Origin: Eledone cirrhosa
Taxonomy: Eukaryota
NCBI GenBank assembly: GCA_964016885.1
Contig: OZ024766.1
Location: forward strand, 6,572,001 to 6,636,000
Direction of reading: 5' to 3'
DNA: 64,000 nucleotides
Made by a program: the position numbers and the translations under genes. How positions within the stretch are numbered: the stretch's first letter is position 1; each line of letters starts with the position of its first letter. Under the pieces are notes generated by a model. It ran no database searches, was not told the origin of the DNA, and was given only the letters and a program-made list of their open reading frames with translations. Of this stretch, positions 36,091 to 55,317 are shown piece by piece.

Positions 36091-36146
36091 ACTGCCTGAT
36101 GAGGTCATAGCCATTCAATGGCTATCATCGAAATATATATAGCAGT
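36091..36146 (+). ncRNA. Minimal type-I hammerhead ribozyme motif
   Basis: ACTGC-CTGATGA-ggtcatagccattcaatggctatcatc-GAAA-tatata-TA-GCAGT; stems I and II pair; short palindromic stem III. Confidence 0.75.
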
Positions 36147-47939: not shown

Positions 47940-48099
47940 ACACACACCCACACATATATATAATGTTCTTTCTAAACTAATCTTTAATGTGAATATAATT
48001 CCTTTCCTCTTTCTTTTCTTTTTTTCATTCCGTCTCTCCTACTACTGTGTCACTACCACCACTGATACTACTACATCGATGATGATGATGATGATGATG

Positions 48100-49045
48100 A
48101 TGATTGCCAACTAACTACCAATTACCAACACCACCAAACATCACCAACCGCTGCCATCGCCACAACCACCGACAAAACTACTACCACCCCTACTACTACT
48201 ACTACTACCAACAACAACACCATGACCACCGATACCAATACCCCCTCGATGACAACGAAACGACGACCACCAACAACGCCATCGACACCACCACCACCAA
48301 CGACACCACCAACAACGACACCACCATCGACACCAACAACACCATCGACACCAACAACGACACCAACAACACCACCACCACCAACAACAACAACAACAAC
48401 ACCACCACCAACACCGACACCATCGACGACACCACCAACACCACCATCGACACCAACAACACCATCGACACCAACAACGACACCAACAACACCACCGACA
48501 ACAACAACACCACCACCAACACCGACACCATCGACGACACCACCAACACCACCATCGACACCAACAACGACACCACCACCAACAACAACAACACCACCAC
48601 CACCACCACCACCACCAACACCACCACCACCAACACCACCGACACCACCATCGTCACCACCACCACCAACACCGACACCACCATCGTCACCACCACCAAC
48701 AACACCGACACCACCATCGTCACCACCAACAACATCGACACCATCGACACCACCACCACCACCATCGTCACCACCACCACCACCATCGACACCAACACCG
48801 ACACCACCATCGACACCGACACCACCATCGTCACCACCACCAACAACGACACCACCACCACCAACAACAACACCATCGACACCACCACCAACAACAACGA
48901 CACCACCAACAACAACAACACCACCATCGACACCACCACCACCACCACCAACAACACCACCACCAACAACACCATCGACACCACCATCGACACCACCACC
49001 ACCAACAACAACAACATCGACACCGACACCGCCGCCACGACCACC
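48100..49045. repeat. Cryptic CAC/CAA/CGA triplet repeat
   Basis: Low-complexity tract directly upstream of exon J. Confidence 0.85.
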
Positions 49046-49073
49046 ACTGCTGACTTCCCGTTCGGCCCACAAG

Positions 49074-49706
49074 AGCGGAGTGGACAGCTACATATCGGCT
49101 GGTCGGCAGAGCAGCAACGACCAGACAAACGGGGACAGTGGCTACGAGGCAAGCTCTGCGAAGCCGGAAGGCGAGGAAGAAGGGGAGATAACTGGCGAGA
49201 ACACAGCCGACACCATCTCGCCGGACAGTCCTCCTCCACCTCCCCCCCCACCACCACCGCCGCCGCCACCTCCGCCACCTCCCCCGCCGCCGCCGCTCGA
49301 CGAAGAAGACGGTGGCGCACAGCAACAGCAACAACAACAACAACATCAGCAACAACAAGGACCACAATCACAACAGGGGCAACTAGGTACTCAGCAGAAG
49401 CCGCAGAGGGATCCGAAAAAGGCCCCTTACGTTGCTGCTGGCAGCGGCAGCAGCCGAAATTTGCAAGGGAAGCCAAAGCCGAAAGCTAGCAGCCAGCAAT
49501 ACCAACGTCACCCCCACTCGCACCACCACCATCCCCGCTCCCACCACCAACACCACCCACTGGCCTCCGCCTCCGCCACCCCTTCGCCGTCGCCATCCTC
49601 TCCTGCTTCCTCGCCCCCTTCCTCGACGACGTCGCCGTCGCCTTCTCCCTCGTCCATGTCAGACTCTAGGCAAAGACTGTTGCAGAACTCCGAGGTGAAC
49701 GTCTGA
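49074..49706 (+). CDS. Same gene, terminal exon J (poly-Pro/Gln/His tail, ends SEVNV*)
   Basis: gctgac branch, cccacaag|AGC GGA GTG, phase 0; GC-rich complex sequence in frame with ORF 48222..49706; stop TGA at 49704-49706. The AAG acceptor is the least certain boundary. Confidence 0.75.
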   Translation, partial: SGVDSYISAGRQSSNDQTNGDSGYEASSAKPEGEEEGEITGENTADTISPDSPPPPPPPPPPPPPPPPPPPPPPLDEEDGGAQQQQQQQQHQQQQGPQSQQGQLGTQQKPQRDPKKAPYVAAGSGSSRNLQGKPKPKASSQQYQRHPHSHHHHPRSHHQHHPLASASATPSPSPSSPASSPPSSTTSPSPSPSSMSDSRQRLLQNSEVNV

Positions 49707-52974: not shown

Positions 52975-53316
52975 ATTTTCATCATCATTTCATTTTACGT
53001 CCACTTTTCCCTGCTTGCAAGGGTGGGACGGGAACTGATTCTGGCTAGATTTCTACAGCTGGATGCCCTTCCTAACACCAACCTCATTTACAGTGAGTGC
53101 TGGGTGCTTTTTTGCCGTGGCACCTCCACGACCACTTTGCAGTGGAATGATAGGGACCCCAGTCCCTATCATCTCATTTCTACAGCTGAGTAAACTGGAG
53201 CAATGTGAAATAAAGTGTCTTGCTCAAGGAAACAACACATCACCCGGTCCGAGAATTGAACTCACAACCTTTCGATTGCAAGGCCAATGCTCTAACCACT
53301 AAGCCATGTGCCTCCA
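52975..53316 (-). mobile_element. Full-length SINE family B, single-module form
   Basis: Minus strand: tggaggcacatggcttagtggttagagc (A box), gagttcaattc (B box), ccttgagcaagacacttt core, RTE-type tail and (ATG)n. Confidence 0.85.
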
Positions 53317-53330
53317 TATATATATATATA

Positions 53331-53474
53331 GTTTTAATATAGATGAGATTCTACAGGACTAGAACTGTTTCATTCATTCGAAATCATCAGGAATCTGGGT
53401 ATATACCCAGATTCCTGATGATTTCTAATGAATGAAACAGTTCTAGTCCTGTAGAATCTCATCTATATTAAAAC
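53331..53474. ncRNA. 144-bp palindrome encoding a type-I hammerhead on each strand
   Basis: + strand: AGATTC-CTGATGA-tttctaatgaat-GAA-ACAG-ttctagtc-CTGT-A-GAATCT; mirror copy on the - strand; one arm mismatch seen. Confidence 0.8.
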
Positions 53475-53541
53475 TTTTATACTCTGCTATGTATTGAGTA
53501 CCTTACTTACTGTGGTTACCTCCGATTCAACCCGGAATAAC

Positions 53542-53575
<34 letters not shown>

Positions 53576-53703
53576 CTGCCAAGACTGGGATTGATCCATC
53601 AGCACAATTAAGGTATGTCAAACACCAATTTATTTTATCTGATGAGGACGTACTGAGAAAACAGTACAGTACCTCTGAAATATATATTTATTAATATTTT
53701 GAA

Positions 53704-53745
<42 letters not shown>

Positions 53746-53748
<3 letters not shown>

Positions 53749-53848
53749 AAGCTTCTACAGGACTAGAACTGTTTGATTCATGTGAAATCATCAGGAAGCT
53801 TCCTGATGATTTTACTTGAATGAAACAGTTCTAGTCCTGTAGAAGCTT

Positions 53849-53890
<42 letters not shown>

Positions 53891-53993
53891 AAGCTTCTAC
53901 AGGACTAGAACTGTTTGATTCATGTGAAATCATCAGGAAGCTTCCTGATGATTTTACTTGAATGAAACAGTTCTATTCCTGTAGAAGCTTTTC
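53746..53993. ncRNA. Two tandem 106-bp palindromic double-hammerhead cassettes
   Basis: 53746-53851 and 53888-53993, each centred on GGAAGCTTCC; + strand core intact, - strand core has GAAA changed to CAAA. Confidence 0.75.
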
Positions 53994-54084
53994 TATATTA
54001 AACATTTATACTTTGCTATTTATTGAGTACTTTATTTAATGTGGTTACCTTTGGTTGAACCAAGTATAAACTTATATATGTATG

Positions 54085-54930
54085 TGGAGACGCGTGGCCT
54101 AGTGGTAAGGGTGTTGGACTTACAATTATAATGTCGTGGGTTCGATTCCTGGGTTGTGTGTTGTTTCCTTGAGCAAGACACTTCATTTCACGTTGCTCCA
54201 GTATACTCAGCTGAAAATGAGTACCAGCAATAGCTGGAGGTTTAACCCTGCGATGGACTGGTGTCCTGTCCAGGGGGAGTCTTGTACTATCAGTTATTTA
54301 ACACCAATGAAACTAAGACAGACTTTAACCCTGTGATGGACTGGTGTCTTGTCCAGGGGGAAGTCTTGTACTCTCAGTCACTTAACACCAATGAAACTAA
54401 GACAAACTTTAACCCTGTGATGGACTGGTGTCCTGTCCAGGGGGAAGTCTTGTACTCTCAGTCACTTAACACCAATGAAACTAAGACAAACTTTAACCCT
54501 GTGATGGACTGGTGTCCTGTCCAGGGGGAAGTCTTGTACTCTCAGTCACTTAACACCAATGAAACTAAGACAGACTTTAACCCTGTGATGGACTGGTGTC
54601 CTGTCCAGGGGGAAGTCTTGTACTCTCAGTCACTTAACACCAATGAAAGTAAGACAGACTTTAACCCTGTGATGGACTGGTGTCTTGTCCAGGGGGAAGT
54701 CTTGTACTCTCAGTCACTTAACACCAATGAAACTAAGACAGACTTTAACCCTGTGATGGACTGGTGTCCTGTCCAGGGGGAAGTCTTGTACTTTCAGTCA
54801 CTTAACACCAATGATACTAAGGCAGACTTTAACCCTGTGATGGACTGGTATCCTGTCCAGGGAAAAGTCTTGTACTCTCAGTCACTTAACACCAAGACAG
54901 ACTTAAGACAGACTTAAGACAGACTTTAGA
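54085..54930 (+). mobile_element. SINE family C (tRNA head, CORE-like body) with 84-bp 3' module x8
   Basis: tggcctagtggtaag A box, ggttcgattcc B box, ccttgagcaagacac core, then tandem accctgtgatggactggtgtcctgtccaggggg units. Confidence 0.85.
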
Positions 54931-54978: not shown

Positions 54979-54980
<2 letters not shown>

Positions 54981-55317
54981 GGACCATAAATCCAACTTCG
55001 GCCACAAACCATCCATCAGGCTTATAAACCCAACAAAGTCGGACACGGGGAGAATCAGTAAAAAGATCCTACAGTGCGTTATACTAAATGTCAAGCAAAA
55101 CGCGAGATCTAGCCTCTGGTACAGCACCCAGGAAGTCATCTCATGGTTCAGGAATATCGAGGACAAATGTGACACCAAATTCATCCAGTTCGACGTAGAG
55201 GGCTATTATGCTTCTGTTACCCAACCTCTCGTTAAGGCTGCTTTGGATTACGCCAAAATACTTTCAACCATCACCGACCAGAATAAGAATCCAGAAATAG
55301 CCGTTGAAACGGCTTGA
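54979..55317 (+). pseudogene. Penelope-like retroelement reverse transcriptase fragment (112 codons, no start)
   Basis: KDHKSNFGHKPSIRLINPTKSDTGRISKKIL...WYSTQEVISWFRNIEDKCDTKFIQFDVEGYYASVT: RT motifs 1-3 of the KDHK/RLINP type; flanked by (TA)n; absent from the ORF track. Confidence 0.8.

What the first reader, a model, noticed from the sequence alone, without database searches (positions are those of the whole stretch)
53331..54075. Palindromic cassettes with a hammerhead ribozyme in both polarities
Seen: three near-perfect palindromes (53331-53474, 53746-53851, 53888-53993). Each arm has CUGAUGA, stem II, GAA-ACAG/CUGU-A and a paired stem I (predicted cleavage after GUA). In the second type both ribozymes share one self-complementary stem I strand (GAAGCUUC). 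The two types differ in stem I (AGAUUC/GAAUCU vs AGCUUC/GAAGCU), which is covariation, and each is followed by a similar ~75-bp tail. Known: Penelope-like pseudo-LTRs and retrozymes carry type-I hammerheads and often form inverted arrangements. Inference: a short non-autonomous ribozyme retroelement whose RNA could switch between an inactive rod and an active fold, with the tandem pair able to release a ~142-nt unit that might circularise.
Basis: partly seen in the sequence, partly recalled or inferred. Interest (0 to 1): 0.8.

Follow-up and report, generated by a model that had tools for sequence, protein, structure and literature searches.

The report
Head-to-head Hydra-type Penelope retroelement ends
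The three palindromes are real and four of their six arms carry an intact hammerhead-ribozyme motif, but they are most likely the ordinary back-to-back scraps left when a Hydra-type Penelope jumping gene inserts into TA repeats, predicted to fold into an inactive rod rather than a switch, and their one unreported feature is a small hairpin in the tail that likely marks where copying of the element starts or stops.

Summary
The palindromes are confirmed (1, 3 and 4 mismatched pairs), but the left arms of both type-B copies have G12 changed to C, and the first B copy has no tail. The motif belongs to a high-copy, variable repeat family (4970 contigs, 5055 raw reads laid). In it G12 is intact (87-100%), loop II varies, many copies run on into non-mirror DNA, and inversion points differ between copies. 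So the palindrome is not an amplified unit. Inverted 5'-truncated copy, one-sided tail and (TA)n target are the published Penelope-like insertion pattern. Ribozyme details (U.U at stem II foot, ACAG/CUGU stem III) match the Hydra clade. Read-through RNA favours the rod by 65-79 kcal/mol, both folds needed for the 142-nt unit cost 76-130; B1/B2 looks like a DNA duplication. The scan read similar palindromes this way before in other genomes. New here: a bulged hairpin (N-CUC-stem-loop-UW-GAG-N'-RC) shared by this tail and Hydra-type tails from two other assemblies. Short ends lie 3-11 nt before it (6 of 6 pairs), long ends 33-44 nt after it (10 of 12). No parent ORF, RNA or cleavage was shown.

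The parts
53316..53330 (.). (TA)n target remnant, left of cassette A
53330..53402 (-). A left arm: inverted, 5'-truncated 3' end with intact type I hammerhead motif (C3 53390, A17 53352); short 3' end 22 nt past A17
53403..53475 (+). A right arm with intact hammerhead motif (C3 53415, A17 53453)
53476..53542 (+). A tail (67 nt), one side only; long 3' end 89 nt past A17
53481..53501 (+). Bulged hairpin motif shared with Hydra-type Penelope tails (only hit of the descriptor in the window)
53543..53574 (.). (TA)n
53575..53706 (+). Unrelated remnant with a hammerhead core (CTGATGA at 53639, long stem II, GAAA) but no matching 3' stem I strand; not part of the family
53707..53745 (.). (TA)n target remnant, left of B1
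53746..53798 (-). B1 left arm; hammerhead motif with G12 changed to C at 53775 (predicted dead)
53799..53851 (+). B1 right arm, intact core (C3 53803, A17 53841), no tail; the centre of B is a self-complementary hexamer in the 5' strand of stem I
53852..53887 (.). (TA)n between the duplicated B copies
53888..53940 (-). B2 left arm, identical to B1 left arm, G12 changed to C at 53917
53941..53998 (+). B2 right arm, intact core (C3 53945, A17 53983), one change in loop III
53999..54072 (+). B tail (74 nt), long 3' end 89 nt past A17; holds a decayed copy of the bulged hairpin at 54010-54030

Best explanation
Each palindrome is most likely two short, 5'-truncated 3' ends of a Hydra-clade Penelope-like retroelement, inferred to have been joined head to head while the element was copied into a (TA)n tract, with the hammerhead likely carried along as a passenger. 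Shown: the arms, one-sided tail, TA flanks, hammerhead motif, high-copy variable family and tail hairpin. Inferred from Penelope biochemistry: the element's reverse transcriptase-endonuclease cuts the TA target, both target strands prime on uncleaved RNA, one just 5' of the tail hairpin (short arm) and one about 43 nt 3' of it (arm with tail), both copies stop just upstream of the ribozyme and are joined at a short self-complementary stretch (about 55%; fold-back of one cDNA followed by endonuclease resolution next to the hairpin about 35%). B was then duplicated at DNA level through TATA microhomology. Read-through RNA of either strand is predicted to be a long inactive double-stranded rod; these copies are predicted dead ends.
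For: Anatomy equals the published pattern: inverted 5'-truncated copy, tail at one end, (TA)n target (PMC8557442; PMC3846280); opposite-strand hammerhead pairs 100-700 bp apart are reported (PMC4209133). Both target strands are cut and extended and two RT starts delimit the tail; hammerhead cleavage is not needed for insertion (PMC11167929). Hydra-clade table: U.U at the foot of stem II in 14 of 25 families, ACAG/(C,U)UGU stem III in 5 of 25, (TA)n target, one family with an inverted copy and hammerheads on both strands. Protein-selected loci hold the same architecture next to Hydra-type ORFs: 4 distinct head-to-head pairs, 3 with a tail on exactly one arm. Tail hairpin: 1 hit in the window, in A's tail (0.15 expected in 128 kb), 6 hits in 4 loci (0.07 expected); 8 of 18 hammerheads in protein-selected loci have it downstream, 2 more a near variant, the other 8 end or are interrupted before the tail. 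Family data: G12 intact in 97% of depth (X1), 3013 of 3475 reads (X21); 1185 of 5055 reads leave the reference at 53939 into non-mirror DNA; 8 listed centre-crossing pieces have 2-9 gaps; 8 of 15 joints shown turn inside stem II, 3 join the left arm to the tail. Folding. B1 versus B2: 1 difference of 106 as a direct repeat.
Against: No ORF is linked to this family: the Hydra-type RT fragment at 54979-55314 is 0.9 kb away behind a SINE, a minisatellite and a TA run, and four window words of 10-11 letters were absent from the paper's consensus files. Loop III is 8 nt against 1-3 nt in all 25 listed Hydra families, and the tail is 67-74 nt against the 30-40 nt in print (though Hydra-type tails in L001 are about 65 nt). 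A and B both turn within 13 nt of the core, closer than random truncation suggests. The share of head-to-head copies in the family could not be counted (24 of 5289 pieces shown, longest first). Organism A of the laid runs may not be the window's species (0.34 of words; no RAD read 99% alike). Local alignment of the whole tails to L001 tails was not significant (638, 200 and 2198 of 5000 shuffles), and single hairpins fold weakly (z -1.55 to +0.43).
Confidence: 0.8

Rival explanations
1. One reading: a short palindromic non-autonomous ribozyme element that moves as a unit, switches between rod and active fold, and releases a 142-nt circle from the tandem pair.
For: Cleavage sites are 142 nt apart and both right arms have intact cores; isolated arms are only 2.2-5.1 kcal/mol from the active fold; centre-crossing copies exist in organisms A and B.
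Against: G12C of the B left arms is not a family trait; centres vary; many copies are not mirror-joined. 13 nt of antisense arm already costs 17 kcal/mol, full read-through 65-79, both folds 76-130. No joint of that period among the 15 of 18 joints shown. The flanking SINE-like repeats point away from the cluster.
Confidence: 0.04
2. The family has no ORF of its own: it is a short retrozyme-like derivative of a Hydra element, moved in trans, whose head-to-tail units of about 78 nt could self-cleave as dimers; the palindromes are still insertion by-products.
For: Head-to-tail joints with 57-58 nt plus 20-21 inserted letters in raw reads (33 and 8 reads from 8 and 3 starts, plus 33 reads from 9 starts on the equivalent joint). 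The double-hammerhead fold is within 0.6 kcal/mol of the dimer minimum for A. Animal retrozymes derive from Penelope ends, units 51-972 bp (10.64898/2026.07.22.740005).
Against: These are a small share of 5055 reads and may come from few loci; the joint falls at the short 3' end, as in ordinary partial tandems; upstream loose ends are long (median 52-69 letters) and mixed.
Confidence: 0.08
3. A single truncated copy inserted and was later turned into a palindrome by DNA repair or replication fold-back, unrelated to retrotransposition.
For: B's centre is a self-complementary hexamer; TA tracts and hairpins are fragile (own knowledge).
Against: The short arm ends 3-11 nt before the tail hairpin in 6 of 6 pairs from two assemblies, a position set by the element and not by the host DNA; the same layout surrounds ORF-bearing copies.
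Confidence: 0.04
4. Same insertion scars, but from another Penelope clade that targets (TA)n (Neptune or Naiad).
For: Naiads target (TA)n and occur in cephalopods; no parent ORF was found.
Against: Naiads lack canonical hammerheads; the stem II foot, stem III and tail hairpin match Hydra-type elements. Neptune ends were not examined.
Confidence: 0.03
5. Assembly or amplification artefact (fold-back chimera), at least for the B1/B2 duplication.
For: No laid record spans the whole stretch; B1 and B2 differ at one base only.
Against: Arms differ at 1-4 positions and end at different points; centre-crossing contigs occur in three other runs. The duplication itself was not tested against reads.
Confidence: 0.01

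Closest known systems
Hydra-clade Penelope-like elements (Craig et al. 2021, PMC8557442)
   Same: Canonical type I hammerhead near the 3' end, (TA)n target, U.U at the foot of stem II (14 of 25 families), ACAG/CUGU stem III with A17, inverted 5'-truncated copy at the 5' side (Penelope-13_HM has hammerheads on both strands); tail hairpin seen by eye in Hydra-2_Amil, Hydra-2_Ajap and Hydra-1_Ajap consensus ends.
   Different: No ORF linked; loop III is 8 nt with a central CUAG palindrome (1-3 nt in the table); hammerhead differs from the listed cephalopod family Hydra-1_Obim; the tail hairpin is not mentioned in the paper's main text.
Insertion unit of endonuclease-bearing Penelope-like elements (pLTR, adjacent inverted truncated copy, optional tail; PMC3846280, PMC8557442, PMC11167929)
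   Same: Head-to-head arms, palindrome at the junction, tail on one arm, two 3' ends.
   Different: Arms are only 53-73 nt; tail is 67-74 nt rather than 30-40 nt; one unit is tandemly duplicated.
Non-LTR retrozymes (PMC7229834; bioRxiv 10.64898/2026.07.22.740005)
   Same: Non-coding, type I hammerhead, high copy, Penelope-derived; U.U-closed helix II is known from axolotl HHR_Amex2; some family reads show head-to-tail units.
   Different: Retrozymes are head-to-tail arrays giving 170-400 nt circles; the window copies are head to head, so each ribozyme faces its own antisense; no RNA evidence here.
Minimal hammerheads of metazoan Penelope elements (PMC4209133)
   Same: Palindromic loop III suited to dimers; opposite-strand pairs close together in truncated copies.
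   Different: Full 4-bp helix III, short 3-bp helix II, no G10.1-C11.1 pair.

Membership tests
Type I hammerhead ribozyme | Core CUGANGA / GAAA / UH with stems I, II, III | tested here: met
   4 of 6 arms; 0 hits in 40 shuffles; all 65 stem cells pair. The two B left arms fail (G12C).
Type I hammerhead ribozyme | Match to an Rfam hammerhead model | tested here: not met
   No hammerhead family; the U.U pair and short stem II may lie outside the models.
Type I hammerhead ribozyme | Self-cleavage after GUA | not testable with these tools
   Folding only.
Penelope-like element insertion unit | Inverted 5'-truncated copy joined head to head | tested here: met
   varied centres in the family
Penelope-like element insertion unit | Tail on one arm only | tested here: met
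   A and B2; 67-74 nt, longer than the 30-40 nt in print
Hydra clade | Insertion into (TA)n | tested here: met
   TA runs on both sides of A and B
Hydra clade | Canonical hammerhead near the 3' end, clade-like details | tested here: met
   U.U foot, 12-nt stem II module as in Penelope-9_HM, ACAG/CUGU stem III; loop III longer than listed
Hydra clade | ORF with RWK, DKT, RT, CxCx5C linker and C-terminal GIY-YIG | tested here: inconclusive
   No ORF linked to this family; an unlinked Hydra-type RT fragment lies at 54979-55314; no genome held
Non-LTR retrozyme | Head-to-tail tandem units each with a hammerhead | tested here: not met
   Window units are head to head; the B1/B2 repeat contains antisense arms. 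A minority of family reads do show a head-to-tail unit of about 78 nt.
Non-LTR retrozyme | Abundant linear and circular monomer RNA | not testable with these tools
   No RNA holder listed
Palindromic element amplified as a unit (MITE-like) | Many copies with the same centre, ends and arm differences | tested here: not met
   G12C rare, centres and ends vary, 1185 of 5055 reads leave at 53939; share of palindromic copies not counted

The most novel reading that the evidence does not exclude
The bulged hairpin in the tail (N-CUC-stem-loop-UW-GAG-N'-RC) is a clade-wide cis signal of Hydra-type Penelope elements, kept by compensatory change across distant animals, that the RT-endonuclease binds to set its two start (or cut) points, 3-11 nt before and 33-44 nt after it; the ribozyme's own stems (stem-loop II, palindromic stem I) then supply the turning points for the head-to-head joins.
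Probability: 0.5. Interest if true: 0.5.

Novelty: new member of a known kind. Interest (0 to 1): 0.3.

Why it matters
The palindromes themselves are ordinary and explain away a tempting 'two-polarity ribozyme switch'. How Penelope-like elements choose their RNA and make tails and head-to-head joins is still open (PMC8557442, PMC11167929, PMC3846280). A 20-nt structured motif at a fixed distance from both 3' ends gives a direct mutagenesis target for that question and a marker for finding ORF-less Hydra-type remnants. If such cassettes are transcribed they would be long double-stranded RNA, of interest for editing or small-RNA silencing, but no RNA data were available.

Tried and rejected
No whole genome is held for the window, so no genome-wide copy survey or parent search. 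Rfam: no hammerhead match; miRNA-family matches are generic hairpin hits below threshold. Pattern scans for the motif found 0 stretches in viral contigs and 0 in metagenome contigs with two patterns. No RNA holder listed among 23 runs; run X4 is of unknown kind and was not used for expression. No place with many molecule ends (DNA or contigs, uninformative). Pfam gave nothing for the RT fragment or four relatives; clade was read from motifs and the paper's alignment. Hydra-type loci were not found in viral contigs. The tail motif as bare sequence is not enriched genome-wide (91 versus 122 control in G001, 17 versus 24 in G002); only the structured form near hammerheads is. Whole-tail alignment to L001 tails was not significant. 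B1-(TA)n-B2 read as one large inverted repeat was rejected: 1 difference as a direct repeat against 7 counted from the arm differences. Three of the four arm differences in A and B fall in or next to loop II, which hints at two different templates, but private mutation was not excluded. ARAGORN found no tRNA gene near the cluster. Searches for the hairpin in print: no 'hairpin', 'stem-loop' or 'bulge' in the Craig main text; 6 papers listed, none describing it by title or abstract start; no earlier scan note; subscription papers, Repbase reports and bioRxiv supplements were not seen.

Full report
Observation. The window is microsatellite-rich animal DNA; the flanking SINE-like repeats recall octopus SINEs, which is my recollection and comes from no call. 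They are the only long non-simple palindromes in the window. A type I hammerhead descriptor finds the three right arms and the left arm of A; at strict settings 5 hits in the window (these four and one at 36096) against 0 in all 40 shuffles. Two details of the finding are wrong. The left arms of B1 and B2 have C in place of G12 (53775, 53917); G12 is the general base (position recalled; PMC6765202 passages say only that a guanine serves), so type B has an intact motif on one strand only. And B1 has no tail. Stem II is three pairs on a U.U foot; stem I shows one compensatory pair between A and B, not significant on five distinct arms (48 of 500 shuffles). Rfam has no hammerhead match.

The family. 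No genome is held, so I laid four public runs on 53880-54082 at 80% likeness. 4970 of 16.3 million contigs of X1, 5055 of 12.5 million raw RAD reads of X21, 218 contigs of X4 (all organism A) and 19 contigs of X5 (organism B) were laid: a high-copy, divergent repeat; depth gives no copy number, and organism A may be only a relative of the window's species. At 53917 the family has the intact G12 in 97% of depth in X1, 3013 of 3475 reads in X21, 93% in X4 and all of X5. Of 40 variant rows shown (66 in all), loop II and stem I account for many, one falls in CUGAUGA (A6 to G, 5% in X1, 222 of 1073 reads from 9 starts in X21). 1185 reads of X21, 229 contigs of X1 and 19 of X4 leave the reference at 53939, and the X21 consensus (agreement 0.58) is not the mirror arm of A or B. 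Head-to-head copies do exist: 8 of the 24 pieces shown (5289 in all, longest kept) cross the centre with 31 letters or more on each side, with 2-9 gaps. Of 15 joints shown (18 in all), 8 turn inside stem II (one with exactly four letters in place of loop II, as fold-back at that hairpin would give: 1 contig at depth 107 and 17 reads), 3 join the left arm directly to the tail, 3 are head-to-tail with a unit of about 78 nt, and 1 is an effect of the palindromic reference. Most rest on one or two contigs with sides of 20-30 letters, so they are hints one by one; together they show many inversion points and not one amplified palindrome.

Folding. Isolated 51-nt arms are 2.2-5.1 kcal/mol from the full hammerhead fold; for A the double-hammerhead dimer is within 0.6 kcal/mol of the dimer minimum. 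Any transcript entering from outside meets the antisense arm first. Thirteen bases of it beyond the centre raise the cost to 17 kcal/mol, the whole cassette to 65-79. Both folds needed for the 142-nt piece cost 76 (start at the B1 centre) to 130 kcal/mol. These are equilibrium secondary-structure values without tertiary contacts or proteins, but the gap is too wide for a switch. B1 and B2 differ at 1 base of 106 and share the same arm differences; a duplication between the upstream TA run and the TATAT after the right arm gives exactly the observed order, tail-less B1 included (inference).

What it is. Published Penelope-like insertions have an inverted 5'-truncated copy at the 5' side and a tail at one end (PMC8557442, passages, section 11 and supplement parts 2 and 53), mostly head to head with a palindrome at the junction (PMC3846280, passages); opposite-strand hammerhead pairs 100-700 bp apart are reported (PMC4209133, parts 1-2 of 4). 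In vitro a Poseidon protein cuts and extends both target strands, starts at two sites that delimit the tail, near a stem loop, and does not need hammerhead cleavage (PMC11167929, parts 1-2 of 4). A and B fit: both long ends lie 89 nt past A17, the short ends 22 and about 15 nt. The clade is probably Hydra: in the paper's table 14 of 25 Hydra families have the U.U foot, 5 of 25 the ACAG stem III, nearly all target (TA)n, and one occurs in a cephalopod though with another hammerhead. Using relatives of the RT fragment at 54979-55314 (42-54% identical) I fetched Hydra-type loci from two assemblies labelled as bacterial that evidently hold animal DNA (DKT, RWK/RWR and CxCx5C motifs). They show the same layout: 4 distinct head-to-head hammerhead pairs, one with cores only 26 nt apart, 3 with a tail on exactly one arm, two around an ORF. 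Against membership: no ORF is linked to this family, loop III is 8 nt, and the tail is about twice the published length.

The tail hairpin. Tails of these loci and of A share a small bulged hairpin, N-CUC-[stem-loop]-U(U/A)-GAG-N'-RC. A descriptor taken from the non-window copies, with the outer pair left free (a choice made after seeing A), gives 6 hits in L001-L004 (0.07 expected) and 1 in the whole window, in A's tail at 53481 (0.15 expected in 128 kb). Among 18 distinct hammerheads in protein-selected loci with 130 nt of flank, 8 have it 45-62 nt past the cleavage site, 2 a near variant, and the other 8 end in a microsatellite or an inversion before the tail; upstream control 0, antisense control 1. 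Between the window family and an equal-length family 3 of 7 pairs change on both sides (only two lineages). B's copy is broken at 54013 and 54020, where 94% of X1 depth has the pairing letters. By eye it is also at the 3' ends of Hydra-2_Amil and Hydra-2_Ajap and the 5' end of Hydra-1_Ajap, and at both ends of L003. Short arms stop matching 3-11 nt before it in 6 of 6 pairs; long ends lie 33-44 nt after it in 10 of 12, two having no TA run to measure. Against: single hairpins fold weakly, the bare sequence is not enriched, whole tails do not align significantly, and the comparison rests on two assemblies plus a few consensus ends. I did not find it described.

Mechanism. Shown: anatomy, family variation, motif positions. 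Inferred: the protein binds at the tail hairpin, the two target strands prime on either side of it, the copies stop just upstream of the ribozyme and are joined at a short self-complementary stretch (clear for B, doubtful for A). Joints that link a left arm straight to the tail favour two primers; joints turning at loop II favour fold-back; under fold-back the hairpin would instead mark an endonuclease site in DNA. Either way the ribozyme is a passenger and the cassettes are dead ends. Retrozymes (PMC7229834, passages; bioRxiv 10.64898/2026.07.22.740005, parts 1-3 of 5, supplements not seen) are head to tail; only the minor 78-nt units resemble them.

Verdict. Real, partly misdescribed, and of a known kind; earlier scan notes on other genomes reached the same reading, which is not independent support. 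Interest 0.3, nearly all of it from the tail hairpin.

Noticed in passing
window 54979-55314 +: RT fragment of a Hydra-type Penelope-like element between TA runs, 42-54% identical to 500-700 aa relatives; not linked to the palindromes.
   Followed up: partly
window 36096 +, 36363 -, 56660 +, 61377 -: Four more type I hammerhead motifs of other families next to TA runs; 36096 and 36363 face each other tail to tail; 56660 also has a U.U foot.
   Followed up: partly
window 49703, 49941, 50044, 50185 +: Repeated very small hammerhead-like motifs (CTGANGA, a few bases, GAAG, paired flanks) that do not fit the descriptor.
   Followed up: no
window 53575-53706 +: Hammerhead core with long stem II but no matching 3' stem I strand, between A and B1.
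   Followed up: partly
window 52982-53316 - and from 54083 +: tRNA-like SINE heads (weak Rfam tRNA matches) pointing away from the cluster; the right one runs into a minisatellite of about 60 nt (54240-54900).
   Followed up: no
laid runs, joints 53939 to 53882/53883/54001: Head-to-tail units of about 78 nt of this family in raw reads of organism A, a candidate very small retrozyme-like unit.
   Followed up: partly
L001, L003, L004 (G001) and L002 (G002): Contigs labelled as bacterial metagenome-assembled genomes hold many Hydra-type Penelope copies (40 and 7 matches), so these assemblies contain animal DNA.
   Followed up: partly
L003 2885-2980 +: Two copies of the bulged hairpin just upstream of the start codon of a near full-length Hydra-type element, one duplicating the 3' tail.
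   Followed up: partly
window 48066-49706 +: Long low-complexity open frame rich in Pro, Thr and Gln, possibly an exon.
   Followed up: no
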